The position numbers and the translations under genes were made by a program. From IMG/VR virus record IMGVR_UViG_2698536640_000025: a stretch of 38,686 nt of DNA, one strand, 5' to 3'. The first letter of the stretch is position 1; the number at the start of each line of letters is the position of its first letter. Positions 2,665 to 38,686 of this stretch are shown here, piece by piece. The notes under the pieces are model-generated. The model saw only the letters and a list, made by a program, of their open reading frames with translations, was not told the origin of the DNA and did no database searches. Source of the stretch: a virus (Duplodnaviria; Heunggongvirae; Uroviricota; Caudoviricetes).

Positions 2665-2859
2665 ATGACTGACTCCACTCAAACAAAAGACTTATACAGC
2701 GATTTACGCTTCATCATCATACAACAGCAATCAGGCAGGATGGATCCAACACGTGCAAGCAAGGCCTGGAAAGAAGCCCTTACCGATCAGGGGATCGATG
2801 TAATTAGCGAAGTCATGGCTGAAGTGATTTTTAGGCTGACAAGAGACGAATCACTGTAA
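2665..2859 (+). CDS. Hypothetical early protein (64 aa)
   Basis: ORF track; same strand and tight packing with the early operon. Confidence 0.35.
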   Translation: MTDSTQTKDLYSDLRFIIIQQQSGRMDPTRASKAWKEALTDQGIDVISEVMAEVIFRLTRDESL

Positions 2860-2884
2860 TCATCGCATAAGGACCGAGTGAAGA

Positions 2885-3208
2885 ATGAAGCAACAACGAA
2901 ATGCACGCATCAATAACAACACCGAACGCCACGTTGCACGCCAGCACTTCCGTAAAAATAGTGCGACCGCAACCACTGAAATCCATACCACACCAGACGG
3001 TCATCCGGTAAAACAAACCGGAAAGCACACCTGGGCGATTGGCGACACTGGCATCGTTATTCACAAAAGTTTTCGTAGCCCTGTTACTGGCAGATTTAAT
3101 TTTACCCTGACTCGCGGAGATGATTACTTCGGACAGGACTTCACATTTTTTGAAGCGTTAAGAACGGTCGATCGGTTAATGACTGGTCGTAATTTTCACG
3201 CTAAATGA
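2885..3208 (+). CDS. Hypothetical early protein (107 aa)
   Basis: ORF track; RBS-like GAGTGA before the ATG. Confidence 0.45.
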   Translation: MKQQRNARINNNTERHVARQHFRKNSATATTEIHTTPDGHPVKQTGKHTWAIGDTGIVIHKSFRSPVTGRFNFTLTRGDDYFGQDFTFFEALRTVDRLMTGRNFHAK

Positions 3209-3221
3209 TACAGATGAAAAC

Positions 3222-3437
3222 ATGGAAACATACAAAATTAAAAATATTGAACACCATGACGGTTTTTTCAGCACTGAACATGTTGCTTGTGTTGTCAGGA
3301 TTTTCAATGAAGTAGATGTGATTTTGAAGCAAAACATAAAGCTTGAAATCATCGCAAAAAGCGAAGCCGACGCCATTGAAATAAAAAAAGCTATTGAACG
3401 CCAGATAATGCCGTTGACAAGTATCATTGCATTTTAA
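3222..3437 (+). CDS. Hypothetical early protein (71 aa), AT-rich
   Basis: ORF track; ATG start; lies in an AT-rich stretch. Confidence 0.4.
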   Translation: METYKIKNIEHHDGFFSTEHVACVVRIFNEVDVILKQNIKLEIIAKSEADAIEIKKAIERQIMPLTSIIAF

Positions 3438-3455
3438 GCAACAGGAAAAATAACC

Positions 3456-3695
3456 ATGACCAGAAATTACAAAGAAATCGTCAATCAGATCATTAAGGCT
3501 TACAGCCACCGCATCGCAAAATCACCCGAGTTCATACGCATAATGGAGACGCGCTCATTAATGCAAGGACTGAACGGGTTGGCACTGGCCGCATTGGCAG
3601 CTAACGATATTGATGCCACTATCGAAATAAACAACCTGTTATTAGACATTGAAAAAGGCGGAAACATAGAACCCTACAATCTGGAGGCCGCATGA
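3456..3695 (+). CDS. Hypothetical early protein (79 aa)
   Basis: ORF track; ATG start 19 nt after the previous stop. Confidence 0.45.
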   Translation: MTRNYKEIVNQIIKAYSHRIAKSPEFIRIMETRSLMQGLNGLALAALAANDIDATIEINNLLLDIEKGGNIEPYNLEAA

Positions 3696-4852: not shown

Positions 4853-5080
4853 ATGGTCGCCATCCTGAATGTGTGTTGCTGCCCCCCCCTGAACGTGGAA
4901 AGAAAAGCCCGCGCATCGCTGCGTTTATTCCGCGACGGCGTGCGGAATTTTTCACGCATAAAACCCCACGACTACCTGGTAATAAGAATCGGTTTTCGCT
5001 GGCGATTGCTGAGCAAAAACAACGGGGCGTCATGGGATTTATTAACGCACGAAACCTATAACAAAGAGGCCGCGTTATGA
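4853..5080 (+). CDS. Hypothetical small protein (75 aa)
   Basis: ORF track; GAGGTGA RBS; ATGA overlap with the dam start; unusual composition. Confidence 0.3.
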   Translation: MVAILNVCCCPPLNVERKARASLRLFRDGVRNFSRIKPHDYLVIRIGFRWRLLSKNNGASWDLLTHETYNKEAAL

Positions 5081-6049: not shown

Positions 6050-6400
6050 ATGGCAGTGATTTATATCGCCGGTCCCATGACCGGATGCAAAGACCACAAC
6101 AGGACGGCATTTTGCGTGGAGGACCTGAAACTTCGGTGCGCCGGAAACATCGTTCTTAATCCTGCCGTACTGCCTGACGGATTAAGCCAGCAGCAGTACA
6201 TGAGCATTTGTATTCCGATGCTCATGTGTGCCGATGCCATTTACTTACTGGAAGGCTGGGTGGATTCAGCTGGCGCGCGGGCGGAGTACGTAATGGCACT
6301 CAAACTGAACATGCCAGTGTCATTCCCGGAAAACCGGGCAGCCGGAGAAACCATCGCGCAGCTGCTTCACAAATCAAAAGCCGCACAGGCGACTGAGTAA
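6050..6400 (+). CDS. DUF4406-like protein (nucleoside 2-deoxyribosyltransferase-like fold)
   Basis: N-terminus MAVIYIAGPMTG typical of the DUF4406 family common in P2-like prophages. Confidence 0.65.
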   Translation: MAVIYIAGPMTGCKDHNRTAFCVEDLKLRCAGNIVLNPAVLPDGLSQQQYMSICIPMLMCADAIYLLEGWVDSAGARAEYVMALKLNMPVSFPENRAAGETIAQLLHKSKAAQATE

Positions 6401-6838
6401 CCGACCGGAGATCGAAACATGATTGCGCGAAGAGCTGCCAACCGCCTCACAGGCTTTATTCCAGGCAAGGTTGATCATGCACTCCATCACGGGGCTGTCA
6501 CTTTCCTCAACAAAGGAGAGGCGCGCAATCATGCATTCCGGAGTGAGCACGTGGCGCTGGCTAATCAGTCTTTGATAGCTAAGCGCCTGCCATTCAGCCT
6601 TTTCAGCTCTGATAGAAAGAGAGGCAGCCATGACCTGCCACACCAGAAAGAGCACCACACTGGCGAAAACAAACGTTGCGCTGTCGCAAAAAATGAATGC
6701 GGCAACAATCGCAAGGAAAGCGCTAATCCTCAGAACCAAGGAAGCGCGACGGTGGAGAAGGCTTGTCATGTGTTCAAGCCAGTAGCTGTACCACAGGTCA
6801 AAAAGAATTTCGTAATCAGAAGGGAGCTTATCACTCAT
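6374..6838 (-). CDS. Membrane protein (about 154 aa, two predicted TM helices) encoded antisense to the early operon
   Basis: Track ORF 6374..7021; internal ATG start MSDKLPSDYEIL...; hydrophobic segments LVLRISAFLAIVAAFIF and ATFVFASVVLFLVWQVMAA; 3' end overlaps DUF4406 by about 27 nt. Confidence 0.5.
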   Translation of the reverse strand: MSDKLPSDYEILFDLWYSYWLEHMTSLLHRRASLVLRISAFLAIVAAFIFCDSATFVFASVVLFLVWQVMAASLSIRAEKAEWQALSYQRLISQRHVLTPECMIARLSFVEESDSPVMECMINLAWNKACEAVGSSSRNHVSISGRLLSRLCGF

Positions 6839-7221
6839 CAGAAACACCCCGCGTATGCAGACAATCACCAGTTGCCAGGTGATATTAATTCGCCACATTC
6901 TAACCACATCAGCACGCAACACAAAAACCGCTTGCCAGCGCTCGTCGTGTCGGGTTACATTTCCGCTGCACCTCATAAAACGGGTGCCGGGATTTCCACC
7001 CTGCTGACTAGCAAAGCGCACTACCGCGCCAGCGGTTTTTTTGTGCGTACTGTATTGCCACGTTTTTTTCGCATCAGAATTATGGCGGGGCGTACGGGGC
7101 CGACTTCGGTCGGGCCGGGTTCTTTGCTAGCCGGTTGTGGAAACCCTGTACGTCTCGCCACCCCGAGTTTTCCACCTCCGGTTGGTGAGTTTTCAAAACT
7201 TACTAGCAAAGAGGCCACACC

Positions 7222-7511: not shown

Positions 7512-7928
7512 ATGAAGAGCGTTAAGGGACTTTCAGATATTCAGGACTTCTTTAACTGGATGTGGGCGGTGGATCCCCTGCTGGCTTCCCGCCTGAACAA
7601 CTGGCACGACTATTACCGCCGCGCCTGTAAACAGGCCGCCCGCAGCATCACCACATACGGGGATTTCTCCTTCACCGTTGACGGTCGTTACCGCGTGGAC
7701 GTGAAAGGTGACGGTGATGGCTTTGGTTTATTTCACATCAACGGCACCGACAGTACCGCCATCAGCTGGTCATCGTCAGAGATGGCACTGGTTCTGGAAA
7801 TGACAACCCACAGCGTGGCCGTGAAAGGCATATACACCGCAGAAGACTTTATCGGTGAATACCAGCGCCTTCTCGTGCTGTACCGCGCGGCGTTTCAGGA
7901 GGTCACTGGCGGGGAGTACGACGCATGA
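7512..7928 (+). CDS. Hypothetical protein (138 aa) immediately upstream of gpA
   Basis: ORF track; stop overlaps the gpA start (ATGA). Confidence 0.5.
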   Translation: MKSVKGLSDIQDFFNWMWAVDPLLASRLNNWHDYYRRACKQAARSITTYGDFSFTVDGRYRVDVKGDGDGFGLFHINGTDSTAISWSSSEMALVLEMTTHSVAVKGIYTAEDFIGEYQRLLVLYRAAFQEVTGGEYDA

Positions 7929-10438
7929 GTGACCGCAATGCACAGCTGGCGTACCCGTGGAACGCACCGCTACCGGTTATCGATCCTGAAACGTTCGGCA
8001 GAGCACAACCAACCGCATTACGCCAGGCCATTCAGAGCTACATCAACGAGGACATTCGCATTGATGCCAGACTGGATGAAGAAACCGTCTCCTTCCTGAC
8101 AAACACAGACGAAGGCAAGCGAATTAATTCGCATCTTCACCACGACGAAGAGCGTCGGGTCAGACTGGAAAAACTGGCGAAGCACAAACGCGAGAATCCG
8201 CCCACGGTGGTATCGGAAGCCATGGCAGAACTTCGCGCCCTGCCCTCGTTTCTTGGCAACGTGCTCATTCGTGATCTGGCGCGTTTAAACCGCAAACAAC
8301 AAAGCGCCCGCAATGAAGGCGTGAAAAACAACAACACTCACGTGGCCGATAACTTCGTTCGCCGTGGACTGCGCACACGCCTGAAACGCATCGAACAGGT
8401 GAATGAATGCTTCGCCACGACGGCATTCAAAGCCACCGCAGCGCGTCATCGCCTTGATGAATTACTCATGCTGCCACAACTCAACCGTGATCAAATTCAG
8501 CGCCTTGCCACACTAACGGCGGCGGCATTTTCCACCGAACTGGAACGCATATGTGATGAAGTTACTGAGCGGACAGGAAAAGGCGACGATAACCTGTTTA
8601 CCTGGTTGCTGACTTACCAGCAGCTGGCGCGCATGGCAATAAAACTGGGCGTGAACCCACCATACTGGCCGTCACTCGAGATCAGACGTGACCGCCGCAC
8701 GGCACCAGACCCTGAACGGGTACCGGGCGCGGTAATGCGTATCACCTGCGCCACCTGGTGGAACAACCAGCTGCGCCACCTCGCTGATCTCTGGCGGGAG
8801 GAATTACTGCGTGCCGCCGGAAGAGTATCGCGCAAGGCATCCCCCTACATCAGCCATGAGTCACTCCAGGAATTCCGGGAGAAACGCCAGCGCACCCGTG
8901 ATTTTCTCAAAAGCTGGGACATTGAAAACGAAGACGGTGAACGCCTGAGCCTGGAGGACGTGTACTGGTCAGGGCTGGGGAATCCGCGCAACCGCCGCAA
9001 CGAGATGATGGCCTGCGTCAGAGGGATGGAACAGGTCGCCGAATCGCGTGGTGACTCCGCGTTCTTCGTGACAGTGACCTGCCCTTCCCGCTTTCACAGC
9101 GTAAACGAGGACGGCAGCCTGAACCAGAAATACAACGGTGCCACCGTGCGCGATGCCAGTGATTATCTGGTTTACGACGTCTTTGCAGCTGCAAGAAAAA
9201 AACTCAACAAAGAAGGCCTGAGCTGGTACGGGGTGCGCACCGTTGAGCCACACCATGACGGCACACCGCACTGGCACATGCTGGTATTCACCGCCCCGGA
9301 CAATGAAGAACGCATCATTGAAATCATGCGTGACGCAGCAATCAAATCAGATCGCGCAGAACTGGGGAATGATATTTCTCCGCGCTTCAAGTGCGAAAAA
9401 ATCGACCCGGCAAAAGGCACACCGGCAAGCTACATCGCAACCTATATTGGCAAGAACCTGGACGCCAGCACCTTTCACGACAATGACCCGAAAACCGGCA
9501 AACCTTACGCCGATAAAGAATCGGGAAAAACCATGGCGGAAACCGTGGAAAACGCCATTGCCTGGGCGAGTCTCCACCGCATCCGGCAGTTCCAGTTCTT
9601 CGGTATCCCGCCCCGCCAGGTATGGCGTGAACTCCGCCGCCTTGCCGGACAAATGGAGCGTAACCCCGCATCACCGAAGCGCCTGGACCATGACGACATT
9701 GACGCCATTCTGGCCGCCGCTGACGTGGGGTGTTTTGCCACCTACATCAACCGTCAGGGCGGCGTGCTCATTCCACGCAACCTGTACCTGATCCGCACCG
9801 CATACGAAACCGCAGATGAGGCCAACGACTACGGCGAATTCCCGCAGCGCATCTACGGAATTTGTGCCCCGTCGCTCGGCGAGCGCTACACCATCTGCAC
9901 CCATCCGGACGAGTGGAAACTGGTCAGAAAAGAAGCGAAAGCCGACAACAGCACGGACGAGGATTTTGACGTTGGGGGCGGCTTCGCCGCACCTTGGACT
10001 CGTGGCAATAACTGTCCCCATGATGAAAAAACAGACACCGGAGAGGGTAAAACCCCACCACCGGAAACCAGGAAAGAACAAAAACTGACCATCCCGGAAG
10101 GTGATTTGAGCGAATGGTTAAGGTCACTGACCCCCACAGAGAGAAAACAACTCACCAGGCAGCTGAAAGATGCGCCATCTGACACAAAAACCGTGAAAAC
10201 CGGCGGCCCCACCACGCCCGATGACGTCATACATGTGCGTACAGCATTGCCGCTGACTGACGTCACCACCACCGTAATCAAGTCGGCACTGAGCACGACG
10301 GGCGAGGAGCTACACAGTGGCGCAGCACTTTCCGTACACAGAGGTGCACGCGTTCGCCTGCCTGACGGGCGGATTGTGCACTGGGATGAAAAATCACGAA
10401 GCCTGGTGGCAGCAGATCAACCGGAGGTTAACCCATGA
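7925..10438 (+). CDS. A: Replication initiation endonuclease, P2 gpA family (rolling-circle initiator)
   Basis: 837 aa; HUH-type metal-binding motif HHDGTPHWHMLVF and tyrosine motif YIATYIGKNLD; position matches P2 gene A. Confidence 0.9.
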   Translation: MSDRNAQLAYPWNAPLPVIDPETFGRAQPTALRQAIQSYINEDIRIDARLDEETVSFLTNTDEGKRINSHLHHDEERRVRLEKLAKHKRENPPTVVSEAMAELRALPSFLGNVLIRDLARLNRKQQSARNEGVKNNNTHVADNFVRRGLRTRLKRIEQVNECFATTAFKATAARHRLDELLMLPQLNRDQIQRLATLTAAAFSTELERICDEVTERTGKGDDNLFTWLLTYQQLARMAIKLGVNPPYWPSLEIRRDRRTAPDPERVPGAVMRITCATWWNNQLRHLADLWREELLRAAGRVSRKASPYISHESLQEFREKRQRTRDFLKSWDIENEDGERLSLEDVYWSGLGNPRNRRNEMMACVRGMEQVAESRGDSAFFVTVTCPSRFHSVNEDGSLNQKYNGATVRDASDYLVYDVFAAARKKLNKEGLSWYGVRTVEPHHDGTPHWHMLVFTAPDNEERIIEIMRDAAIKSDRAELGNDISPRFKCEKIDPAKGTPASYIATYIGKNLDASTFHDNDPKTGKPYADKESGKTMAETVENAIAWASLHRIRQFQFFGIPPRQVWRELRRLAGQMERNPASPKRLDHDDIDAILAAADVGCFATYINRQGGVLIPRNLYLIRTAYETADEANDYGEFPQRIYGICAPSLGERYTICTHPDEWKLVRKEAKADNSTDEDFDVGGGFAAPWTRGNNCPHDEKTDTGEGKTPPPETRKEQKLTIPEGDLSEWLRSLTPTERKQLTRQLKDAPSDTKTVKTGGPTTPDDVIHVRTALPLTDVTTTVIKSALSTTGEELHSGAALSVHRGARVRLPDGRIVHWDEKSRSLVAADQPEVNP

Positions 10439-11058: not shown

Positions 11059-11393
11059 AGACACCCAGAATGACCGGAAAGGTAATCATTTTACGCTACC
11101 TGGAAACGCACGCACGCTTCAGCGCGCCAGAGCTGGTTGAAAAACTGGGCGTGAAAAGGACCATCATTAATCAGGCCGCCGGAAAGATGGTACGCGAAGG
11201 GCTGCTGGTTGTGGACGGGTACACGGACAAGATAACGCATTACCGGAAGCCAACGGAAAAGGAACGACTGGAGCTGGAGCGGCGGGCTGAACAGCAACAA
11301 AAGCCGTCCGTAATCCAGGACTGCAAGCGAAGCGAAATCATGAAGCGAATTCTGTTTATCTACGGCGCTGGCGAAGAGCTGCCAGTCATCTAA
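11055..11393 (+). CDS. Putative winged-helix DNA-binding protein (112 aa)
   Basis: ATGA overlap with the upstream stop; segment VKRTIINQAAGKMVREGLLVVDGY resembles MarR/wHTH recognition helix plus wing. Function inferred. Confidence 0.45.
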   Translation: MKTPRMTGKVIILRYLETHARFSAPELVEKLGVKRTIINQAAGKMVREGLLVVDGYTDKITHYRKPTEKERLELERRAEQQQKPSVIQDCKRSEIMKRILFIYGAGEELPVI

Positions 11394-11425
11394 CCCCAAC
11401 AATAAAACCAACACGGGAGACAAAT

Positions 11426-11743
11426 ATGCCAACACAGGTTGCAACAGAGGGACGACTGGCAGCAGACCCGAACACAAGGAGAACAACCAAAGGAACCAAC
11501 GTCACAACGGCACAACTGGCGGTATCACTACCCTGCCATGGCGCAGAACAGCCAACCACAATGTGTCTTTACCTTATTTCATTCGGGAAGCAGCACGAAG
11601 AACTGGCAAAACACAGAAAAGGCGATCTGATTCTGGTGCACGGAAACTTGCAGGTAAACAGGTATCAGGACAAGTACGGGCAACAGAAAGAGGGCTGGCA
11701 GCTGCTGACGCAAAGCATTATCAGCTCAAGAACCGGGCGATGA
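11426..11743 (+). CDS. SSB-like OB-fold protein (105 aa)
   Basis: GRLAADPNTRRTTKGTNVTTAQLAV...LILVHGNLQVNRYQDKYGQQKEGWQLL resembles the SSB OB-fold core; GGGAGA RBS. Confidence 0.5.
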   Translation: MPTQVATEGRLAADPNTRRTTKGTNVTTAQLAVSLPCHGAEQPTTMCLYLISFGKQHEELAKHRKGDLILVHGNLQVNRYQDKYGQQKEGWQLLTQSIISSRTGR

Positions 11744-11753
11744 CTTCACGCAT

Positions 11754-11793
11754 GTTACCCTCAGCAGCGAGGGTAACACAGGATTTCTTTTTT
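11754..11793 (+). terminator. Rho-independent terminator closing the early operon (stem GTTACCCTC/GAGGGTAAC, then a T-tract)
   Basis: Perfect 9-bp stem with 6-nt loop followed by TTTCTTTTTT, read directly. Confidence 0.55.
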
Positions 11794-12329
11794 CAGTCAA
11801 ACCGAAATCGGCCGCTTGTCGCGTATGCATAGGTGACCACCGCACCCAGCGCATTCACACGCTTCTTCACATAAATCACATTACCATCCTGATAGTCACC
11901 GTATGGGTAGCAAATAAAGATTGTTTTTTGCAAATCAGGATCATCAACAAATGCCCCTGAACAACTTTTTGAGCTACCGCGACTGTACTCATAGGGAGCG
12001 GAATAGAATGAATCTTCACCCGGAAGAAAATATATCAGCGTAACCAGGAGGGTAAACAGAATCATCCAGGTAAGAAGGCACATACCCGAAAAAAACTTAA
12101 GATACGATGTAACCCCGGTAAATTTAGACCGATCAACCAGGTTCTTTTTCAACAGGCACAGTGAGACAAAAACCGAAAGCACCACAGACACTGAAACAAG
12201 GCAGTTTGTCGTGAACGAATAAAGGTAGGTAATTCTGTAAACATCGTTTCGCCACCAAATAAAAAGAAAAATCCCCCCCAAAACAGAAAGCGTGACAAAA
12301 GTTAAATAAGGATATGAGTAATTTTTCAC
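11793..12329 (-). CDS. AT-rich accessory gene: membrane protein with three predicted TM helices and an 80-aa C-terminal domain (about 178 aa; track ORF extends to 12437)
   Basis: Hydrophobic segments LTFVTLSVLGGIFLFIWW, LVSVSVVLSVFVSLCLL, MCLLTWMILFTLLVTLIYFL; GTG start with GGTGAG RBS proposed at about 12329; strongly AT-rich relative to neighbours; lies at the P2 tin/old position. Confidence 0.55.
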   Translation of the reverse strand: MKNYSYPYLTFVTLSVLGGIFLFIWWRNDVYRITYLYSFTTNCLVSVSVVLSVFVSLCLLKKNLVDRSKFTGVTSYLKFFSGMCLLTWMILFTLLVTLIYFLPGEDSFYSAPYEYSRGSSKSCSGAFVDDPDLQKTIFICYPYGDYQDGNVIYVKKRVNALGAVVTYAYATSGRFRFD

Positions 12330-12874
12330 AGTTCTCACCCGGCAATACACCACTGATTCAGACAGATGATTATCATCACCACCCACCCCCAAAAATCGCA
12401 AGATAAAAAATGCACAAAAGCGCACGAAATTGCACAATTTTTCTTATGTGTTTCATCCCCATTCAGCCCAGTAACGGCGCTGGCTGAGGCCGGTTTGCAC
12501 GGTGCACGAAAAACGAGGCAATTGCAGCGCGCAGGCGACGAGGGAAGGGCGCCCGAATTGAGGGATGGAAGGCGGGTTGCTTTATTTGGGCTCGTATGGC
12601 GCGTGATACGCACGCAGTAAAGTCAGTTTTGAAAAACCACATCAAAACATGGTCAGGGAAACAGGCCGTCAGAATGCGTCTGATTGCGTCTGGCGAGGTC
12701 GGAGATCGGGAGGGAAACGGACGTGACGAACGGGATAAAAAAGAGAGACAAAAATCACTGAAATCATAAAGTTAATAGAATTTAAAGTATCAGTCATTCA
12801 CGGGTGAAAACTTGCGCACAATATGAGGTGAGCGCAGAATACAGGCTGGCATAAACAGACCAAAGGAGAGCGAC

Positions 12875-13378
12875 ATGAGCCATTTTCGCGATTTGTACCT
12901 GGCAAACAAAAAGAGCCGGGACGCGAGGCGGGAGGTTACAGGGATTCTGCGCAATCAGGCTGAAAAGCTGGTTGCTTTTTATGAGCAGTGGCTGGAATTG
13001 CCTTCAGAGACATGGGAAGACAAAGACGGCGAGCATCATCGTTACGTTGATACGGGGTTTCCGTGCAGAAACGATCGGGACTTCAGGCCATTTCCGGTAA
13101 ATATGATTGCAACCGACACAGATAACATATTCCGGATGGCTGTAAGAACATGGGTTGACTCACACGATGAAGGAGAGTCGGTAAACATAGTCCTGGCAAT
13201 GGAGTTACATTCCGTCGGAAAAGACGGTGTATCTCTTCGGGTTCGCGTGGAAGATGATACCTCCATTCGCGTGGTCATCAACGGAGACGGTGACAGGGAA
13301 TGGCTGCCGATAGTAAACAGTATGAAGATGCATATTATCAGCAAGCTGCAAAGAAGAACGCCATCCGCATTCCGTTAA
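12875..13378 (+). CDS. Accessory hotspot gene: uncharacterised soluble protein (167 aa)
   Basis: ATG with strong AAGGAG RBS; promoter-like TTGCGC-17-CAGAAT upstream; no recognisable motif; between the replication module and the portal gene. Confidence 0.6.
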   Translation: MSHFRDLYLANKKSRDARREVTGILRNQAEKLVAFYEQWLELPSETWEDKDGEHHRYVDTGFPCRNDRDFRPFPVNMIATDTDNIFRMAVRTWVDSHDEGESVNIVLAMELHSVGKDGVSLRVRVEDDTSIRVVINGDGDREWLPIVNSMKMHIISKLQRRTPSAFR

Positions 13379-13393
13379 GAGAGCTGGAGAGTC

Positions 13394-13416
13394 GGGGCAT
13401 AAATTTTTTATGCCCC
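13394..13416. other. Stem-loop (GGGGCATA / TATGCCCC) in the 65-bp gap between the hotspot gene and portal gene Q; no flanking T-tract
   Basis: Read directly; could be a weak bidirectional terminator or part of a packaging (cos) region. Confidence 0.3.
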
Positions 13417-13443
13417 GGCGAAGCAGCAGACAAGCGAAGCGCG

Positions 13444-14487
13444 TCAGCTGGCGTTATCCAGAAGCAGGGCATAGGGGTTAAAGCGCATCACCTCAACGCC
13501 AAGCCATTCATTGACATGCTTCATGGCCTCCATGACAGGTTGCAACTCGTTGATGAAAAACACCCTCGCCGCTTTCTCAACGTCACCAAACGCCGCATTC
13601 CCGTCAGGCATTGCCCCCATCAGTTGAGGTGGTACACGATGGGCAGCAAGGATATCGTCGCGGGCGCTCCCCTTGATGTTCAGGAATTCATCCTTTGCGG
13701 TTATCTGCTGGAACGGCAGTATTTGCACACCATCCTTGCCACCACCCGGCGCATGAAGAAACAGGTTTTTAAACGCCCCGCGACCACGGGAATCCGTAAG
13801 CGTTTTTTTAATGGCCTCGACACTTTCCGCATTCGCCTGAGGTGTGCCTACATAGATAATACACCCGGCATGCGAGCCGTTATCGTAGTAGAGCTTGCGG
13901 AATGTATCCGCTGAGTTTGACAGGCTGACAGACAGCAACCCGCCGATATATTCCGGCATCCCGTAGATCTCCTGATTAATATCAGGATTAAGCACGTGGC
14001 ACACAGTCCCTTTCCTGAAACTGAACTCCGTACCGTCGTCGTTGAGATACCAGTAGGTATCCAGGTCACTTCCCCTGCGTGTATATTTTGCCAGTGCCGG
14101 GCGAAGCAGGAGTGGTTCCCCCAGCCTGTTACGCCGCACTTCAAGATAGGCATTACCAAACACAAACCAGTCGAGCGCAAAGGCTGAAAACGCCTGGCGG
14201 GACAGCAGAGGGTGAGGAACAAAGCACCCGTTCAGGGCGTTGCGCTTGAAGTACAAAGCCGACTGATGCCAGGACGCACGACGGGATGCACGGGCGATAG
14301 CGTTCCAGTCCATGGGGGTATCAAAGTAGCGCCCGTTATCTGCACATGACATGTTATCCAGGAGATCCATGTGGCTGACTTCATAGGGCCCATCAAAGGT
14401 GAATGCGCTGAGTGCAGGCGTTGATTTCAGTGCATCGTGTAACGAATCCTGCCCCCGCTTTCCGGTGTATTTTTTGCGTTTACTCAT
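13444..14487 (-). CDS. Q: Portal vertex protein, P2 gpQ family
   Basis: 347 aa; leftward orientation next to terminase P as in P2. Confidence 0.9.
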   Translation of the reverse strand: MSKRKKYTGKRGQDSLHDALKSTPALSAFTFDGPYEVSHMDLLDNMSCADNGRYFDTPMDWNAIARASRRASWHQSALYFKRNALNGCFVPHPLLSRQAFSAFALDWFVFGNAYLEVRRNRLGEPLLLRPALAKYTRRGSDLDTYWYLNDDGTEFSFRKGTVCHVLNPDINQEIYGMPEYIGGLLSVSLSNSADTFRKLYYDNGSHAGCIIYVGTPQANAESVEAIKKTLTDSRGRGAFKNLFLHAPGGGKDGVQILPFQQITAKDEFLNIKGSARDDILAAHRVPPQLMGAMPDGNAAFGDVEKAARVFFINELQPVMEAMKHVNEWLGVEVMRFNPYALLLDNAS

Positions 14488-19973: not shown

Positions 19974-19975
19974 GA

Positions 19976-20260
19976 ATGTTTCAGCGGCTTTGTGATCACA
20001 TCACGTTCTGGGCGTCAGTGACGACAGCCGGTATCGGCGTGATGACGCTGAGCGAAAAAATTGCCGTGGCCGGTTTTGTGCTGGGAACGCTGTCACTGCT
20101 TCGTGCCTGGCTTCACCGCCGCAGGATGGAGATCGCCCAGGCAAGGCGCAACGAACTGATTGAAAAAATCCTTATGCAGTCAGAAGGAAGGGAGCTGAAC
20201 GACGCAGAGCGCCGGGCAATGATGCTTCTGAAGCAGGATGAGCACGATGGCCGGACCTAA
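19976..20260 (+). CDS. Holin, probable pinholin type (two TM helices, 94 aa)
   Basis: GGGGTGAG RBS; TM segments ITFWASVTTAGIGVM and IAVAGFVLGTLSLLRAWL; immediately precedes a SAR endolysin. Confidence 0.6.
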   Translation: MFQRLCDHITFWASVTTAGIGVMTLSEKIAVAGFVLGTLSLLRAWLHRRRMEIAQARRNELIEKILMQSEGRELNDAERRAMMLLKQDEHDGRT

Positions 20261-20789
20261 GCGTTACGCCGTGGCCGCCATTGTGGCGCTGGGGATCTCC
20301 CTGGCTCCCGGAGAACTGAGAACCTCCCGCGAGGCACAAATCAAAATTGCCACATGGGAGGAGTGCCGGGCCCGACCCTACCGTGATCTGGTGGGGGTCG
20401 GTACGGTCGGATGCGGATCCACCGGTAACGTGGAAAACCGCCTGTACACACAGGAGGAAGTGGCCGGGCGGTGGATCAACGATATGCGCCGCGCTGAGAA
20501 CTGCATCACACAGAATTTCAGGGGGCAGCAGATGCCGCAGTCTGCATTCGAAGCCATGACGGACGCCGCCTTTAACCTGGGCTGCCGGAATCTGATGTGG
20601 TTTAAAAACAAAAACGGCACGCCGCAACGCACCACCATCTGGAAACACGCGCAGACACGGCAATGGCGCCTCATGTGTTACCGGCTGACAGATTTTGTGA
20701 ACAGTGGCGGAACGCGCACGCAGGGACTGGTTAACCGCCGGAATGATTTTAAGAACTGGTGCCTGAAAGACGCGGGAGCGCAGCCATGA
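20238..20789 (+). CDS. SAR (signal-anchor-release) endolysin, phage 21 R-like lysozyme
   Basis: N-terminal signal-anchor AVAAIVALGISLAP followed by an E...D...T catalytic context resembling P21 R. Confidence 0.8.
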   Translation: MSTMAGPKRYAVAAIVALGISLAPGELRTSREAQIKIATWEECRARPYRDLVGVGTVGCGSTGNVENRLYTQEEVAGRWINDMRRAENCITQNFRGQQMPQSAFEAMTDAAFNLGCRNLMWFKNKNGTPQRTTIWKHAQTRQWRLMCYRLTDFVNSGGTRTQGLVNRRNDFKNWCLKDAGAQP

Positions 20790-21211
20790 AACTGAACATT
20801 ATCCTTTGTGCGCTGCTGCTGACCATTTCGCTGCAGGCAATGGTGGTCATCCGGGCCTATCGCTCAGGTCAGGAGAGCACCCGTTATGAAGCGCTGGAAA
20901 AAGCCGTGAAAGAGAGCAATACGACCGTCCGGGAGTTGCTTAAGGCCACGGCGGAGACACAGTCAGCGCTGGCCGCTATCCGGCGCGAAGATCAGGAGCG
21001 TGCAGCCAGAGGGGAAGAACGACGTGAAACGATGCGGAAAAACTTACAGGCGGATGAGTGCGCACGCACTTCTCCCCCTGCTGATGTTGCTGACAGCCTG
21101 CAACAACACGCCAGCGCCGCTGAAAACCGGCGTCATTTGCGGGAGCGTGCCGGAAAGTCTGACCAGACAGACACCGGTACCGGTGCTGCCGCAACACATG
21201 ATATGGGCTGA
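20786..21211 (+). CDS. Inner-membrane spanin (Rz/LysB-like)
   Basis: N-terminal TM MKLNIILCALLLTISLQAMVVI then charged coiled-coil-like region; ATGA overlap with the endolysin stop. Confidence 0.7.
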   Translation: MKLNIILCALLLTISLQAMVVIRAYRSGQESTRYEALEKAVKESNTTVRELLKATAETQSALAAIRREDQERAARGEERRETMRKNLQADECARTSPPADVADSLQQHASAAENRRHLRERAGKSDQTDTGTGAAATHDMG

Positions 21212-21329
21212 TGTGGCTGACTGGGGAGACCGACTGGTAGATGCCCTGGACAGTTGTAATGCCGATAAAGCCGCCATTGCCGGGCTGGAGCGGCAGCGGA
21301 CAGCACGAATGAACACTCATGAAAAATAA
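21054..21329 (+). CDS. Outer-membrane lipoprotein spanin (Rz1/LysC-like), overlapping the Rz-like gene in another frame
   Basis: Lipobox LLTAC in MSAHALLPLLMLLTACNN; embedded/overlapping arrangement as in P2 lysB/lysC. Confidence 0.7.
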   Translation: MSAHALLPLLMLLTACNNTPAPLKTGVICGSVPESLTRQTPVPVLPQHMIWADVADWGDRLVDALDSCNADKAAIAGLERQRTARMNTHEK

Positions 21330-21339
21330 CGGAGTCACT

Positions 21340-23385
21340 ATGGTACCGAAACATTATCAGCTTGTGACGGCAATGACGAACAAGGAACTTGCCGAAAAAC
21401 TTGCGCCCATGCTCAGGGAAGGATGGGGACTTCTTGGGGGACCTGTCTCAGCATCAGAGCCGGGAGCACCATTTTACCTGATGCAGGCACTGGTCACTGA
21501 CAGAGACCTGCCATCAGCCATTCCGGTACCAGAAGGCGAGGAAAACCCCGTACCGGGCACTACCGACGGATACGACACTGGACACACAACTGAGCCAGAG
21601 TTTTATTATGTGGTGCCACTGGCTGGTCAGTCCAATGGCATGGCATACGGTGAGGGGCTGCCATTACCCGATACATTCGACAGTCCTGATCCACGAATTA
21701 AACAGTTAGCGCGTCGCAGTACGGTAACACCGGGCGGCGCTGCATGTACCTATAACGATATTATTCCGGCAGATCACTGTCTCCATGATGTACAGGATAT
21801 GAGCAGCCTTAATCATCCGAACGCCGATCTGTCAAAAGGTCAGTATGGCTGCGTCGGACAGGGTTTACATATTGCCAAAAAATTACTGGCGTTTATCCCG
21901 AAAAATGCAGGGATCCTCCTGGTACCTTGCTGTCGTGGAGGGTCAGCGCTTACTTCCGGCGCTGAGGGGGCATTCAGTGAATCTTCAGGAGCAACGGCCG
22001 AATCATCCCTGTGGGGCGTCGGCAAACCGCTGTATAACGATCTGCTTACCCGTACAAAAGCCGCGCTGGATAAAAACCCCAAAAACGTCCTGTTATCCGT
22101 GGTCTGGATGCTGGGAGAGTTTGATCTGAAATCAGCAACATACGCACAGCACCCGCAATTATTCCTGAACATGGTGAATCAGTTCCGCGCCGATCTCAGC
22201 GCATATGCTGCACAGTGCACCGGAGGCAACGCATCACTTGTTCCCTGGATTTGCGGCGATACCACCTATATCTGGAAACAACAATATACCTCTCAGTACC
22301 CGGTGGTTTACGGTGCATATCAGAACAAAGAAGCGCAAAAAATTTATTTTGTGCCCCTGATGACCGATGAGAAAGGTGCTAACACGCCAACAAACCTGCC
22401 TGCCGAAGATCCTGACCTGGCAGAAGCCGGTTATTACGGTGCTGCATCCCGTAGTAACGGAAACTGGACCTCTTCAGATCGCGCCACGCATTTCAGTTCA
22501 TGGGCCCGCCGCGGCATTATTTCTGACCGCCTGGCAACGGCGATCCTGATGCATGCCGGGAAGACCGTCGCCTTCCTGAAAGGTGCACCCGCACCGTTCA
22601 GCGTGGTCGCAGTACCTCCCGCCACGGCCGGTTCAGACAGCACCACCACGGAAAGCCCGCAGCCCTACACACCTGCACCTCAGCCGGGCGCAGGTACGCA
22701 GTCATCACCGGCAAGAACAACGGCCGTCGCTTATCGCGCAGACGCACAGGAAGGGAAACTGAAAGAACAGGGCTGGACAGGGGCAGATGGAAAAGCCTCC
22801 GTCGTAAATGACTCTGCTGCTGAGAGCGGTAAAGCCATGCGAGTGGAAAAAGTCCAGGGGCAACAAACAGCCTGGAAAATCGCCCACGATGTGCCTGCAA
22901 GTAAAGCAGCTGAATTACTTCAGAAAGGCGGGGAAATTGCCTTTCGTTTCAAAATCCCGGAAGGTGTTCAGCTGGCAGAAAACCGCTTCGCCATGGCTCT
23001 GCACTGGCCGGTTTCTCAGCTACCTGAAAACGTTGTTCTGGAAGGCAGCGCAGGAAACGATATGCTGGCCGCCTTCTTCATCCAGAGCGACAGCGCAAAC
23101 CTGAATCTGATGCAGCACAAACAACAGAATGCAAAACTGGGAACCTTCGGGGCATTTAATCATAACTGGCACAACGTGGTGTTCCGGTTTGCCGGAAATA
23201 ACAGCATCAGCGTGACACCGGTCATCAACGGTCAGACCCAGGCGGCCTTTAATCTGGCGAAATGCCCGGCGGCAGGACTGGATAACGACAAACTGCTGAT
23301 CACGGATATCACCAGTAACAAGGACACCTACCCCGTGCTGATTGAGTATGTGACGGTGGATATCAATAACAGCAACGCCGCATAA
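21340..23385 (+). CDS. Putative NanS-p-like sialate O-acetylesterase (DUF1737-like N-terminus, SGNH/SASA esterase domain, Pro/Thr-rich linker, C-terminal carbohydrate-binding-like domain); moron gene
   Basis: GQSNG block-I esterase motif (PLAGQSNGMAYGEG); N-terminal HYQLVTAMTNKELAEKLAPMLREGWGLLG; linker PPATAGSDSTTTESPQPYTPAPQP; GGAG RBS; occupies the gap between lysC and R that is empty in P2. Confidence 0.65.
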   Translation: MVPKHYQLVTAMTNKELAEKLAPMLREGWGLLGGPVSASEPGAPFYLMQALVTDRDLPSAIPVPEGEENPVPGTTDGYDTGHTTEPEFYYVVPLAGQSNGMAYGEGLPLPDTFDSPDPRIKQLARRSTVTPGGAACTYNDIIPADHCLHDVQDMSSLNHPNADLSKGQYGCVGQGLHIAKKLLAFIPKNAGILLVPCCRGGSALTSGAEGAFSESSGATAESSLWGVGKPLYNDLLTRTKAALDKNPKNVLLSVVWMLGEFDLKSATYAQHPQLFLNMVNQFRADLSAYAAQCTGGNASLVPWICGDTTYIWKQQYTSQYPVVYGAYQNKEAQKIYFVPLMTDEKGANTPTNLPAEDPDLAEAGYYGAASRSNGNWTSSDRATHFSSWARRGIISDRLATAILMHAGKTVAFLKGAPAPFSVVAVPPATAGSDSTTTESPQPYTPAPQPGAGTQSSPARTTAVAYRADAQEGKLKEQGWTGADGKASVVNDSAAESGKAMRVEKVQGQQTAWKIAHDVPASKAAELLQKGGEIAFRFKIPEGVQLAENRFAMALHWPVSQLPENVVLEGSAGNDMLAAFFIQSDSANLNLMQHKQQNAKLGTFGAFNHNWHNVVFRFAGNNSISVTPVINGQTQAAFNLAKCPAAGLDNDKLLITDITSNKDTYPVLIEYVTVDINNSNAA

Positions 23386-27255: not shown

Positions 27256-28595
27256 TGATGGCCGCAAAATACAAAACCATTATCACAAATGCCGGCACAG
27301 CAGCCCTCGCAGCTGCGGTGTTACCGGATGGAGAAAAGATCACGCTGACACATATCGCCGTCGGAGACGGTAACGGTAAACCCACAGAACCACTGGCCAC
27401 GCAAACCGCTCTCGTTAAAGAGGTCTGGCGGGGCGAGGTCAGCAGGGTCAGCCGTGACGCGGAAAACACCAGTTTTTTAACCGCCGAAGTGATCATTCCT
27501 GCGAATGAAGGAGGATTCTGGATCCGCGAAATCGGTCTGTTTGACAGCAAAGGCACACTCATCGCCGTGGGTAATGTTGCGGAAGGTTACAAACCGCAGC
27601 TTGATGAGGGCTCAGGCAGAGAACAGGTATTCCGCATGGTGATTCTGCTGAGCAACGAAGCCTCTGTAAATCTGACAGCCGACTCATCAACCACCATGGC
27701 AACACAGGCTGGCGTGGCAGAAATGATAAAGCAGCATGAACAAAACGGTAAACACCCGGATGCCACAACCACCAGTAAAGGATTTACTCAGCTCAGTAGT
27801 GAAACCGACAGTGATGATGAAACCCGGGCAGCCACACCCAAAGCAATAAAAGCACTTAAGGCGCTGACAGTAACAAGACCAACAGCCCCCCTCGCCGTGG
27901 ATCTGAATACACTGGGGAGACCTGAACATCATGGTGACTACTATCAGCCCAACAACAACGGCGCCACTACAGCACATCACTACCCGGTAACATCAGCCGG
28001 ATCATTATCCATCAGGATGGGCGCATGGGGATTCTGCCAGCAGGAATACACCGCCTGGAATCCACCACGAAAATTTATCCGGACAGTGACAGGTAACTTC
28101 ACCGGCAACGGGCCATGGTCTGAATGGAAGGAGGTTGCCATACTCCCCCTCACGCAGACCGGCGACGCCTCCCTGACAGAGCGAGGTATTGTTCAGCTAA
28201 GCAGCGCAACGGACAGTGACAGTGAAGTGCTGGCTGCCACACCAAAAGCTGTGAAGACGGCCATGACGGCAGCAGAAAACGCCGGGCAGAAAGCACGGCA
28301 AGCACTGGAGGCTGCACAGGCAAAAACACAGCGGACACTCTGGGATGTGGGCAGCTTTATTCTGGCGGCAACGGATGCCGAAGGGGAGTGGCCAGCCAAA
28401 ATTGATATAACGGCCGGAAACACCCGCCCGGGCAGTAAACTCAGACTGATAAGCCTGACTCATTCCGAAGGCAACTTCGGCCCCCGTGAATCCATGCAAA
28501 ACTGGAACACAAACCGCAGGCCACCGGGCACGTGGCGGGCCTGCGCTGACATTTATGCAGGCGCAGGAATCGGAATATTTGAGCGCATTGCCTGA
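27255..28595 (+). CDS. H: Tail fibre protein, P2 gpH family (446 aa; shorter than P2 gpH, divergent C-terminus)
   Basis: Conserved N-terminus MMAAKYKTIITNAGTAALAAAV...; two copies of the fibre motif GxxQLSSxTDSDxExxAATPKAxK. Confidence 0.8.
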   Translation: MMAAKYKTIITNAGTAALAAAVLPDGEKITLTHIAVGDGNGKPTEPLATQTALVKEVWRGEVSRVSRDAENTSFLTAEVIIPANEGGFWIREIGLFDSKGTLIAVGNVAEGYKPQLDEGSGREQVFRMVILLSNEASVNLTADSSTTMATQAGVAEMIKQHEQNGKHPDATTTSKGFTQLSSETDSDDETRAATPKAIKALKALTVTRPTAPLAVDLNTLGRPEHHGDYYQPNNNGATTAHHYPVTSAGSLSIRMGAWGFCQQEYTAWNPPRKFIRTVTGNFTGNGPWSEWKEVAILPLTQTGDASLTERGIVQLSSATDSDSEVLAATPKAVKTAMTAAENAGQKARQALEAAQAKTQRTLWDVGSFILAATDAEGEWPAKIDITAGNTRPGSKLRLISLTHSEGNFGPRESMQNWNTNRRPPGTWRACADIYAGAGIGIFERIA

Positions 28596-28606
28596 CGGAG
28601 AGACTC

Positions 28607-36406: not shown

Positions 36407-36726
36407 CGGCTGGAAGGAAAACCTGAAGGCCGGATGTGGAAAGGCCCCGAGTCAAACATATTGTTTAACCCGAGGCCCTAACCATTCCTACCCTAGACAA
36501 GTGGAAGGTTAGCGCCTCCCTGTAAAAGGAGTCAAGCGCTATGCCGCAAAAAACGATCATCGTGAGCATTTTATGCTTAACCATGTTGTTGGCCATCTGG
36601 ATGATACACCGTTCGCCGTGTGAGTTCAGACTTAACATCATGTGGTCAGAATTTGCGGCGTTCTTGCAGTGTAAACAGTAAGAAACCGCAGCGGGGGTGA
36701 AAGCCCCCGCTATCCGGTTGTCGGGT
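36381..36726. repeat. Tandem direct repeat copy 1 (about 346 bp), a hok/sok-like type I toxin-antitoxin locus
   Basis: About 85 percent identical to copy 2 over its length; period about 477 bp; contains a hok-like ORF and a GC stem-loop after it. Confidence 0.8.
36541..36681 (+). CDS. Hok/Gef-family membrane toxin (46 aa, MPQKTIIVSILCLTMLLAIWMIHRSPCEFRLNIMWSEFAAFLQCKQ)
   Basis: Single TM followed by a CE(F/I)R...EFAAF pattern typical of the Hok family; AAGGAG RBS. Confidence 0.7.
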   Translation: MPQKTIIVSILCLTMLLAIWMIHRSPCEFRLNIMWSEFAAFLQCKQ

Positions 36727-36762
36727 TCAGTCGATATGGCACCCCTTTCTCCATTGGATTAC

Positions 36763-36786
36763 AGACGTATTTGCCCGCAATATGCG
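36763..36786 (+). terminator. Rho-independent terminator after hok-like locus 1 (GCCCGCA-ata-TGCGGGC + T6)
   Basis: Read directly. Confidence 0.6.
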
Positions 36787-36857
36787 GGCTTTTTTGCCGC
36801 CCTCCCCCTAAACAGTTTCAACACTGAGCATTGCGCGCACAAAGGGAAATCAGTAGA

Positions 36858-37374: not shown

Positions 37375-37393
37375 GATTCAGAAAAATTGGGTA

Positions 37394-38686
<1,293 letters not shown>

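What the first reader, a model, noticed from the sequence alone, without database searches (positions are those of the whole stretch)
11793..12437. AT-rich minus-strand gene encoding a three-TM membrane protein with a C-terminal domain
Its base composition is visibly lower in GC than the flanking phage genes, suggesting separate horizontal acquisition. The product has three hydrophobic helices followed by an 80-aa Cys/Tyr/Gly-containing domain (ICYPYGDYQDGNVIYVKK...). Small membrane proteins in this hotspot are often superinfection-exclusion or abortive-infection effectors. The true start is uncertain (GTG at about 12329 with a GGTGAG RBS, or ATG further in).
Basis: partly seen in the sequence, partly recalled or inferred. 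Interest (0 to 1): 0.65.

Follow-up and report, generated by a model that had tools for sequence, protein, structure and literature searches.

The report
Uncharacterised prophage inner-membrane protein gene
This is a real, horizontally acquired cargo gene of a P2-like E. coli prophage; it encodes a small inner-membrane protein whose conserved domain probably faces the periplasm, from a common but unstudied family that may block infection by other phages, though its function is untested.

Summary
A 178-codon gene lies on the minus strand at 11793-12329. It starts at GTG 12329, preceded by a GGTGAG ribosome-binding site. Its GC content is 42% against 54% for the window. It encodes three hydrophobic helices followed by a conserved C-terminal beta domain of about 75 residues.

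It is under purifying selection (dN/dS 0.08-0.25). It sits in the known cargo hotspot of P2-like phages between replication gene A and portal gene Q, at the position that old occupies in P2.

Relatives are found in three settings:
- the same hotspot in E. coli, Salmonella and Klebsiella P2-like prophages;
- between xis and exo in lambdoid phages such as 434 and Sakai Sp3 (ECs_0804), an allele present in 915 of 5426 complete E. coli genomes;
- as lone chromosomal or megaplasmid genes in other Enterobacterales.

No Pfam, NCBIfam or PADLOC family matches, and no fold match is significant. Only PHROG 1416 (function unknown) matches.

Charge distribution and two near-invariant cysteines indicate an N-in, C-out topology with a disulfide-stapled periplasmic domain.

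My best guess, at 0.4 confidence, is a lysogen-expressed protein that acts at the periplasmic face to block phage genome entry. Nothing here tests that function, and a non-phage envelope role is nearly as likely. The find is moderately interesting.

The parts
11793..12329 (-). Protein-coding gene: 178 codons plus stop, GTG start; product identical to WP_000801013.1
   Evidence: annotation; relatives start at the homologous position; substitutions cluster upstream; dN/dS 0.08-0.25
12334..12339 (-). Ribosome-binding site GGTGAG, four bases before the GTG start
   Evidence: Sequence read directly; invariant between the window and strain STEC17-183 while the sequence further upstream varies
12330..12437 (-). 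Upstream extension of the 214-codon ORF: not coding. It holds the 5' leader, an unidentified promoter and part of the phage backbone
   Evidence: About ten substitutions per 100 bases here against one in the 537-base gene. Relatives do not share this extension. The TTG at 12437 is simply the first repeat unit
12252..12308 (-). Transmembrane helix 1 (residues 8-26, ending in the 93%-conserved Trp26)
   Evidence: Hydropathy; AlphaFold2 helix 6-29; conservation
12147..12209 (-). Transmembrane helix 2 (residues 41-61)
   Evidence: Hydropathy; AlphaFold2 helix 38-61
12024..12092 (-). Transmembrane helix 3 (residues 80-102)
   Evidence: Hydropathy; AlphaFold2 helix 73-101
11796..12023 (-). Conserved C-terminal beta domain (residues 103-178; five strands). 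Cys123 (11961-11963) and Cys140 (11910-11912) bracket a hairpin. Predicted to be periplasmic
   Evidence: strands 105-116, 125-130, 135-140, 151-158, 162-171. (Cys123 in 28 of 29 and Cys140 in 29 of 29 sequences; charge bias). (most conserved long segment). (PHROG 1416 covers residues 89-178)
12273..12279 (-). G7 homopolymer run in codons 17-19. It reads G9 (a frameshift) in one of 22 complete genomes
11752..11779 (.). 11-bp-stem hairpin between the convergent SSB gene and this gene. A T-run follows it only on the plus strand, so it is a terminator for the early operon and at best a partial one for this gene
   Evidence: -20.6 kcal/mol, z -3.7; sequence
12369..12374 (-). GATAAT, a candidate -10 element 40 to 45 bases before the start. 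It lies at about the position where relatives have TGnTAA(A/T)TT. No convincing -35. Inferred only
   Evidence: The consensus scan found no promoter here or upstream of the gene in 434 and a Salmonella relative
12411..12437 (-). Three TTGTGCA-like units at 10-base spacing. Part of the phage backbone beside cos, not of the cargo
   Evidence: unique in the window, 0 expected by chance. (present in a prophage that lacks the gene). (P2 has three ATGCA units at the same place, overlapping the inferred -35 of the mapped old-tin promoter)
12534..12552 (.). Probable cohesive-end (cos) site, 13 of 19 bases identical to P2 cosR. It marks the boundary of the hotspot
   Evidence: Assigned by similarity and position only

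Best explanation
The gene is a self-contained piece of prophage cargo (a moron). It lies in the cos-proximal hotspot of a P2-like prophage and is transcribed against the lytic early operon, so it is probably expressed mainly in the lysogen.

Its product is a 178-residue inner-membrane protein with both the short N-terminus and the basic loop between helices 2 and 3 in the cytoplasm. The conserved loop between helices 1 and 2, and a conserved five-stranded beta domain of about 75 residues stapled by a Cys123-Cys140 disulfide, face the periplasm.

The conserved, and therefore functional, part is on the periplasmic side, and almost nothing conserved is left in the cytoplasm. So the most likely action is at the outer face of the inner membrane. 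There it would bind either an incoming phage's genome-delivery machinery or the host membrane component that this machinery uses, and so block DNA entry. That is superinfection exclusion of the kind performed by P22 SieA, T4 Imm and HK97 gp15.

Shown here: the gene is real, it was acquired horizontally, and its architecture, conservation pattern and distribution are as described. Inferred: topology, disulfide, expression in the lysogen. Speculative: the exclusion function and its target.
For: Real gene under purifying selection.

Foreign composition compared with the phage backbone.

It occupies the A-Q hotspot at the position of old in P2. Gene start to cos is 205 bp here and 195 bp in P2. 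This hotspot is documented as rich in anti-phage cargo (PMC9122126).

The same family recurs at this hotspot in E. coli, Salmonella and Klebsiella P2-like prophages, always convergent with the early operon. It also recurs in lambdoid phages between xis and exo, opposite to the pL operon and, in 434, bracketed by terminator-like hairpins. Both arrangements fit expression in the lysogen.

A confident model (pLDDT 93.7) shows three helices plus a beta domain, with a short strand from loop 1.

Mean Lys+Arg counts are 1.6 (N-terminus) plus 3.8 (loop 2) against 1.8 (loop 1), which predicts N-in, C-out. Cys123 and Cys140 are conserved in 28 of 29 and 29 of 29 sequences.

The C-terminal domain is the most conserved long segment, while the helices keep only their hydrophobic character.

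There is no conserved partner gene, so the protein works alone.

P22 SieA is a precedent: a stand-alone three-helix inner-membrane protein of about 162 residues that blocks DNA delivery (PMC10883804).
Against: There is no experimental or homology-based link to any exclusion or defence protein. PADLOC gives nothing. hhalign against SieA gives probability 0.3. Fold searches give nothing significant.

The hotspot also carries non-defence cargo such as partition systems and toxins. Published machine-learning predictions call only 15-32% of unknown P2 proteins antiviral (PMC13586616).

More distant relatives are lone genes in ordinary chromosomal or megaplasmid settings. Examples are Citrobacter beside rstB-tus, Phytobacter, Pantoea, Proteus and a Pseudomonas-like contig, with host-like GC in Phytobacter and Pantoea.

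No promoter was found by the consensus scan.

Four of 22 genomes carry two copies; in STEC2018-607 they lie in two P2-like prophages. So the protein evidently does not prevent double lysogeny by its own kind of phage.

Topology and disulfide are predictions.
Confidence: 0.4

Rival explanations
1. It is a lysogenic-conversion or accessory envelope protein unrelated to phages. Its periplasmic domain might protect the cell against a periplasm-acting threat, for example as an immunity-like inhibitor of a bacteriocin, a type VI effector or a lysozyme. Or it might modulate a host envelope component, giving the lysogen a fitness benefit.
For: Relatives are stand-alone chromosomal or megaplasmid genes in Citrobacter, Phytobacter, Pseudescherichia, Pantoea, Proteus and a Pseudomonas-like contig, with host-like GC in Phytobacter and Pantoea. 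The P2 hotspot is known to carry non-defence cargo. The conserved part is periplasmic and disulfide-bonded, as expected of a periplasmic binding protein. There is no defence-family match.
Against: No toxin or effector gene is linked to it in any context examined. It matches no known immunity or inhibitor family. Its repeated capture by two unrelated groups of temperate phages, at sites expressed in the lysogen, is more typical of inter-phage competition genes, but this is only a prior.
Confidence: 0.3
2. It is an abortive-infection effector. The three helices form or trigger a membrane lesion when infection is sensed, killing the cell before the phage completes its cycle.
For: Small multi-helix membrane proteins act as suicide effectors in several defence systems (as discussed in PMC9122126). 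It lies in a defence hotspot. One of 29 family members gave a very weak RexB match (E = 0.09).
Against: There is no partner sensor gene. The predicted cytoplasmic parts are a seven-residue N-terminus and a poorly conserved 15-residue loop, which leaves nothing obvious to sense infection inside the cell. The helices are the least conserved parts and the periplasmic domain the most conserved. The RexB match is not significant.
Confidence: 0.12
3. It serves the phage's own cycle, for example by modulating lysis timing, genome ejection or release, rather than the lysogen.
For: Three-helix membrane proteins include class I holins. The gene lies beside cos and the packaging genes.
Against: The prophage has its own lysis cassette elsewhere, at about 19975-21328. 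The gene is absent from most related P2-like prophages: 22 genomes hold it, while 1142 match some part of a 2-kb query spanning this locus. So it is dispensable. It is transcribed against the early operon. The predicted topology (N-in, C-out) is the reverse of a class I holin. It also occurs in chromosomes without any phage.
Confidence: 0.06
4. It is not a functional gene but a chance or decaying ORF in AT-rich filler DNA.
For: One of 22 genomes has a frameshift in the G7 run. No promoter was found.
Against: dN/dS is 0.08-0.25 over comparisons from 54% to 78% amino-acid identity. A profile search found 58 clusters, whose full-length members share the same architecture. The structure prediction is very confident. 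The exact protein is seen on at least 999 contigs.
Confidence: 0.02

Closest known systems
P22 SieA (superinfection exclusion protein A)
   Same: Both are stand-alone, prophage-expressed inner-membrane proteins of similar size (162-164 against 178 residues) with three predicted transmembrane helices. Both are encoded on the strand opposite the neighbouring lytic genes. SieA blocks DNA delivery by interfering with ejection proteins, which is the mechanism proposed here.
   Different: No sequence relationship (hhalign probability 0.3). The layout differs: in SieA the hydrophilic segment of about 55 residues lies between helices 1 and 2 and there is no C-terminal domain. This protein carries a 75-residue C-terminal beta domain with a conserved cysteine pair.
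P2 old and tin (cargo at the same site in phage P2)
   Same: They occupy the same position and orientation, between the end of the early operon and cos, and are transcribed towards gene A. The gene start is about 200 bp from cos in both phages, and a triple short repeat lies upstream in both. Old and tin are lysogenic-conversion genes that exclude other phages.
   Different: The proteins are unrelated. Old is a cytoplasmic ATPase-nuclease, and tin is annotated only as blocking T-even phage growth. Neither is described as a membrane protein.
PHROG 1416 (phage protein family of unknown function)
   Same: Strong match (E = 1e-49; 28 of 29 family members match). This is the only library family that contains the protein.
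   Different: The PHROG profile is 90 residues long and covers only helix 3 and the C-terminal domain. This is probably because gene callers pick a downstream ATG when the true start is GTG, as in the 112-residue call P0026. It has no assigned function.
Short NfeD-like proteins (E. coli YbbJ, B. subtilis YuaF)
   Same: Similar size and gross layout: N-terminal transmembrane helices followed by a small C-terminal beta-barrel domain. YuaF's layout is recalled from my own knowledge. One weak fold match to an NfeD-like viral protein came from the first, poorer model (E = 0.12).
   Different: No Pfam NfeD match in any of 29 members. hhalign against YbbJ gives probability 1.3. There is no adjacent stomatin/flotillin (SPFH) gene. 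From my own knowledge, the NfeD domain is thought to be cytoplasmic, whereas this domain is predicted to be periplasmic.
HK97 gp15, T4 Imm and T4 Sp (small membrane exclusion proteins)
   Same: From general knowledge: small membrane-anchored proteins, made by a resident or already-infecting phage, that act at the inner membrane or periplasm to stop genome entry.
   Different: They have one or two helices and are much smaller. No library family annotated with an exclusion function was recovered in any search. Direct comparison with these three proteins was not run.
SNIPE (membrane-bound nuclease that cuts phage DNA during injection)
   Same: It is a constitutively membrane-localised defence that acts at the site of genome injection (PMC13190303).
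   Different: SNIPE carries a nuclease domain. This protein has no enzymatic domain, and its conserved part is predicted to lie outside the cytoplasm.

Membership tests
PHROG 1416 | Significant match to the family profile | tested here: met
   E = 1.2e-49 over residues 89-178 of the 178-residue protein; 28 of 29 aligned relatives also match
Cargo of the P2-like A-Q hotspot (Rousset et al. 2022) | Located between the replication gene A operon and portal gene Q, next to cos | tested here: met
   gpA 7925-10438, SSB 11426-11743, target 11793-12329, cos-like site 12534-12552, portal 13444-14487
Cargo of the P2-like A-Q hotspot (Rousset et al. 2022) | Variable occupancy: different genes at the same site in otherwise similar prophages | tested here: met
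   22 of 5426 genomes hold the gene, while 1142 match some part of a 2-kb query spanning this locus. Alternative cargo includes DUF4760, TumE/HVO_A0114 and DUF6516 proteins
Moron (autonomous promoter-gene-terminator cassette) | Deviant base composition and orientation opposite to the flanking phage operon | tested here: met
   GC 42% against 54%; GC3 0.45 against 0.54-0.65; convergent with the early operon
Moron (autonomous promoter-gene-terminator cassette) | Own promoter and own terminator | tested here: inconclusive
   No consensus promoter was found, only a candidate GATAAT. The downstream hairpin lacks a T-run on this strand. The 434 allele has a good terminator-like hairpin
P22 SieA family | Sequence homology to SieA types A-C | tested here: not met
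   hhalign probability 0.3 against P22 SieA
P22 SieA family | Blocks DNA delivery by superinfecting phage | not testable with these tools
   Needs plating and DNA-entry assays
Known anti-phage defence systems (PADLOC-DB 2.0.0) | Match to any defence-protein model | tested here: not met
   No hit for the protein. Among 29 relatives, the only hit was one RexB match at E = 0.09. The library dates from 2023
NfeD-like membrane proteins | Match to the NfeD domain, or homology to YbbJ | tested here: not met
   No Pfam NfeD match in 29 members; hhalign probability 1.3 against YbbJ
NfeD-like membrane proteins | Operon partner of the stomatin/flotillin (SPFH) family | tested here: not met
   No such neighbour in any context, in contrast to ybbJ-qmcA
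Class I holin | Three helices with N-out, C-in topology, encoded in the lysis cassette | tested here: not met
   Predicted N-in, C-out. The lysis genes lie at about 19975-21328
Pfam / NCBIfam curated families | Score above the curated cut-off for any family | tested here: not met
   Best Pfam hit 15 bits against a cut-off of 27. No NCBIfam hit

The most novel reading that the evidence does not exclude
The family would be a new, structurally distinct class of single-protein, periplasm-facing barrier to phage genome entry. Both contractile-tailed (P2-like) and long-tailed (lambdoid) temperate phages have captured it. Counting all alleles, it is carried by roughly a fifth of complete E. coli genomes, including O157:H7 Sakai prophage Sp3. 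Its disulfide-stapled beta domain would recognise a conserved feature of the injection process or of a host inner-membrane entry factor.
Probability: 0.3. Interest if true: 0.6.

Novelty: new variant of a known kind. Interest (0 to 1): 0.4.

Why it matters
Small membrane proteins made by prophages are a poorly charted part of bacterial immunity, because sequence searches rarely recognise them.

This family is common. The lambdoid allele alone is in 915 of 5426 complete E. coli genomes. Members also occur in Salmonella and Klebsiella prophages and on Pantoea megaplasmids. Yet it has no curated family, no name and no paper that I could find.

A confident structural model and a clear topology prediction make it directly testable. 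If it blocks genome entry, it would add a new fold to the short list of exclusion proteins, and it would matter for choosing phages for therapy against E. coli, Salmonella and Klebsiella. If it does not, it is one more lysogenic-conversion envelope protein of unknown role.

Tried and rejected
- **Library searches.** Pfam, NCBIfam and PADLOC on the protein and on 29 relatives gave nothing above threshold.
- **Solved structures by sequence.** Nothing.
- **Direct homology tests.** P22 SieA and the NfeD-like YbbJ are both unrelated.
- **Profile searches.** A search of 1.84 billion representatives found only 58 clusters, nearly all the same family or fragments of it. The two long hits (P0089, P0092) are repetitive proteins and not informative. 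A second, alignment-based search of 5.8 billion sequences added no annotated relatives.
- **Fur box.** A Fur-box-like sequence over the candidate -10 (13 of 19 bases, 12362-12380) is not significant; 13 equally good matches occur in the window.
- **TTGTGCA repeats.** I first took them for a regulatory element of the cargo. They belong to the phage backbone beside cos.
- **Rfam.** Nothing in 11300-13600.
- **Literature.** Searches by accession (WP_000801013, WP_000120056), by Sakai locus tag (ECs0804), by phage name and by topic found no study of this protein. Brenes and Laub 2025 (Cell Host Microbe), on prophage defences against temperate phages, is not held in the library and could not be checked.
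- **Model coordinates.** They are not exposed, so I could not measure the Cys-Cys distance.
Full report
**Setting**

The window is a P2-like (P88-type) E. coli prophage. The order of features is:
- integrase, 582-1574
- the early operon, ending with replication gene A (7925-10438), three small genes including a MarR-family gene, and an SSB gene (11426-11743)
- the gene under study
- a cos-like site
- portal (13444-14487) and terminase genes on the minus strand
- the late genes, ogr, and finally serS

The window matches E. coli STEC2018-607 at 855304-893989 (100% identity over the first 7900 bases).

**The observation**

The minus-strand ORF at 11793-12437 exists, but only 11793-12329 is the gene. 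Four results fix the start at GTG 12329:
- GGTGAG lies four bases upstream.
- NCBI's pipeline annotates the same start (WP_000801013.1, 178 residues).
- Relatives with ATG starts begin at the homologous MK(N/K)xSYPYL.
- Between the window and a near-identical prophage, about ten substitutions fall in the 100 bases upstream of 12340. Only one change, a synonymous one, falls in the 537-base gene.

GC content is 42.1% against 53.7% for the window, in the lowest 2% of equal-sized windows. Third-position GC is 0.45 against 0.54-0.65 in neighbouring phage genes.

Hydropathy gives three segments: residues 8-26, 41-61 and 80-102.

Pairwise dN/dS against relatives is 0.08-0.25, in both the helical part and the C-terminal part. 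So this is a real gene under purifying selection.

**Structure and topology**

With only six sequences the AlphaFold2 model was mediocre (pLDDT 69). With 29 diverse relatives it became very confident (pLDDT 93.7, pTM 0.82). It shows:
- helices 6-29, 38-61 and 73-101
- a short strand at 34-36 in the first loop
- five strands at 105-116, 125-130, 135-140, 151-158 and 162-171

Across the family the mean Lys+Arg count is 1.6 in the N-terminus and 3.8 in loop 2, against 1.8 in loop 1. By the positive-inside rule this predicts that the N-terminus and loop 2 are cytoplasmic and that loop 1 and the C-terminal domain are periplasmic.

Cys123 and Cys140 flank the second and third strands. They are conserved in 28 of 29 and 29 of 29 sequences, and no other cysteine is conserved. 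That fits a periplasmic disulfide.

The C-terminal domain is the best-conserved long segment (mean top-residue frequency 0.53). The helices and loop 2 are poorly conserved (0.28-0.42). Topology and disulfide remain inferences. I had no dedicated topology predictor and no access to model coordinates.

**What it resembles**

No curated family matches in Pfam, NCBIfam or PADLOC, either for the protein or for 29 relatives. The only library match is PHROG 1416, a 90-residue profile of unknown function that covers helix 3 and the C-terminal domain.

Sequence searches of solved structures found nothing. Fold searches found nothing significant; the weak hints are small OB-like beta-barrels.

P22 SieA is the best-studied exclusion protein with three helices and similar size (PMC10883804). 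It is unrelated in sequence and differently arranged. The NfeD-like YbbJ has a similar gross layout but is also unrelated and has a different genomic partner.

**Distribution**

A profile search of 1.84 billion representative proteins found 58 clusters. The full-length ones are about 150-200 residues long and have the same architecture. A second search added nothing annotated. Every source calls the protein "hypothetical" or "transmembrane protein".

Three kinds of context appear.

1. The A-Q hotspot of P2-like prophages in E. coli, Salmonella and Klebsiella. The gene is always next to the end of the early operon and convergent with it, sometimes alongside other cargo.
2. Lambdoid phages (434, 2B8, mEp332, many IMG/VR contigs, and Sakai prophage Sp3 as ECs_0804). 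Here it lies between xis and exo, opposite to the pL operon, and in 434 it is bracketed by terminator-like hairpins.
3. Lone genes in ordinary chromosomal or megaplasmid settings, in Citrobacter, Phytobacter, Pseudescherichia, Pantoea, Proteus and a Pseudomonas-like contig. GC is host-like in Phytobacter and Pantoea.

No partner gene is conserved.

Among complete E. coli genomes, megablast hits to each allele were found in:

| Allele | Genomes with a hit (of 5426) |
|---|---|
| Window allele | 22 |
| P2-borne second allele | 160 |
| 434-type allele | 915 |

The 160 for the second allele include 83 hits at only 60-80% identity, so these sets may overlap.

The 434-type allele and the second P2-borne allele share 78% amino-acid identity and a similar upstream region. 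That region includes a degenerate copy of repeats that belong to the P2 backbone. This suggests the cassette moved from a P2-like phage into lambdoid phages.

**Local anatomy**

A probable cos site lies at 12534-12552, with 13 of 19 bases identical to P2 cosR.

Between cos and the gene are three TTGTGCA-like units at 10-base spacing (12411-12437). They are unique in the window, with none expected by chance. They persist in a prophage that carries different cargo, so they are backbone. P2 has three ATGCA units at the same place, overlapping what I take to be the -35 of its mapped old-tin promoter.

The gene therefore sits where old sits in P2. I could not identify its promoter with confidence. 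GATAAT at 12369-12374 lies at about the position where relatives have TGnTAA(A/T)TT, but the consensus scans found nothing.

An 11-bp-stem hairpin at 11752-11779 separates the gene from the convergent SSB gene. Its T-run is on the plus strand.

A G7 run at 12273-12279 lies in codons 17-19. One of 22 genomes has G9, which breaks the frame. An assembly of another strain from the same collection shows a frameshifted terminase, so a homopolymer sequencing error is as likely as real phase variation.

**Mechanism**

Three things are shown: the gene is dispensable, mobile prophage cargo; it stands alone; and its conserved surface is the C-terminal domain. Two things are inferred: that domain faces the periplasm, and the gene is expressed when the convergent lytic operon is repressed, that is, in the lysogen.

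From this the most economical mechanism is action at the outer face of the inner membrane, and for prophage cargo at this site the most likely such action is blocking the entry of another phage's genome. I put this at 0.4.

A non-phage envelope role is nearly as likely (0.3), because distant relatives are ordinary cellular genes and the hotspot also carries non-defence cargo.

Abortive infection is less likely (0.12), because nothing conserved is left in the cytoplasm to sense infection.

A role in the phage's own cycle (0.06) and a non-gene (0.02) are unlikely.

Four of 22 genomes carry two copies. In STEC2018-607 the copies lie in two P2-like prophages. This argues weakly against exclusion of its own kind of phage.

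**Novelty and verdict**

The kind of thing is familiar: a small membrane protein carried as prophage cargo. This family, however, has no curated description, no detectable relative among known exclusion or defence proteins, and no literature that I could find. One relevant paper could not be read.

I class it as a new variant of a known kind and give it an interest of 0.4.

Noticed in passing
12875-13378 (+): A 167-codon gene (PHROG 5091, unknown function, no Pfam match) sits between the cos-like site and the portal gene. This is a second insertion point. It is present or absent independently of the gene under study: only six genomes have both together.
   Followed up: partly
12411-12437 (-): Three TTGTGCA-like units at exactly 10-base spacing lie next to cos. 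They are backbone rather than cargo. P2 has three ATGCA units at the same place, overlapping what I take to be the -35 of the mapped old-tin promoter, and a degenerate copy travels with the lambdoid allele. They could be a promoter element or a terminase-binding (cosB-like) element.
   Followed up: partly
12273-12279 (-): A G7 run inside codons 17-19 of the gene reads G9 (a frameshift) in STEC17-183 only. It could be a phase-variation switch or a homopolymer sequencing error.
   Followed up: partly
2711-3641: This is the second and deeper low-GC patch of the window (minimum 38.5%). It covers small early-region genes annotated DUF4761 and DUF4754.
   Followed up: no
6374-7021 (-): A 215-codon hypothetical gene lies on the strand opposite the early operon, another cargo-like insertion.
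   Followed up: no
21319-23385 (+): A 688-codon DUF6645 gene lies between the lysis genes and the tail genes, an unusually large extra gene for this position in a P2-like phage.
   Followed up: no
27257-28600 (+): In the near-identical genome the tail-fibre region is annotated as several partial fragments. This suggests a rearranged or invertible fibre segment, or an assembly problem.
   Followed up: no
36540-37152 (+) and 4853-5080 (+): Two Hok/Gef toxin genes lie after ogr at the prophage end, and a ParE-like toxin gene lies in the early region.
   Followed up: no
1-498 and 37392-38686: The prophage is flanked by a DUF2138/yfaT fragment on one side and serS on the other. From my own knowledge these are not neighbours in K-12. 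The matching strain carries two copies of the gene under study and three matches to the 2-kb hotspot query, so recombination between prophage copies may have rearranged the chromosome.
   Followed up: no
L015 6001-6519 (Citrobacter portucalensis): A relative with about 50% amino-acid identity sits in a plain chromosomal setting just upstream of what look, from their translated ORFs, like rstB, tus and fumC. There are no phage genes within 6 kb.
   Followed up: partly
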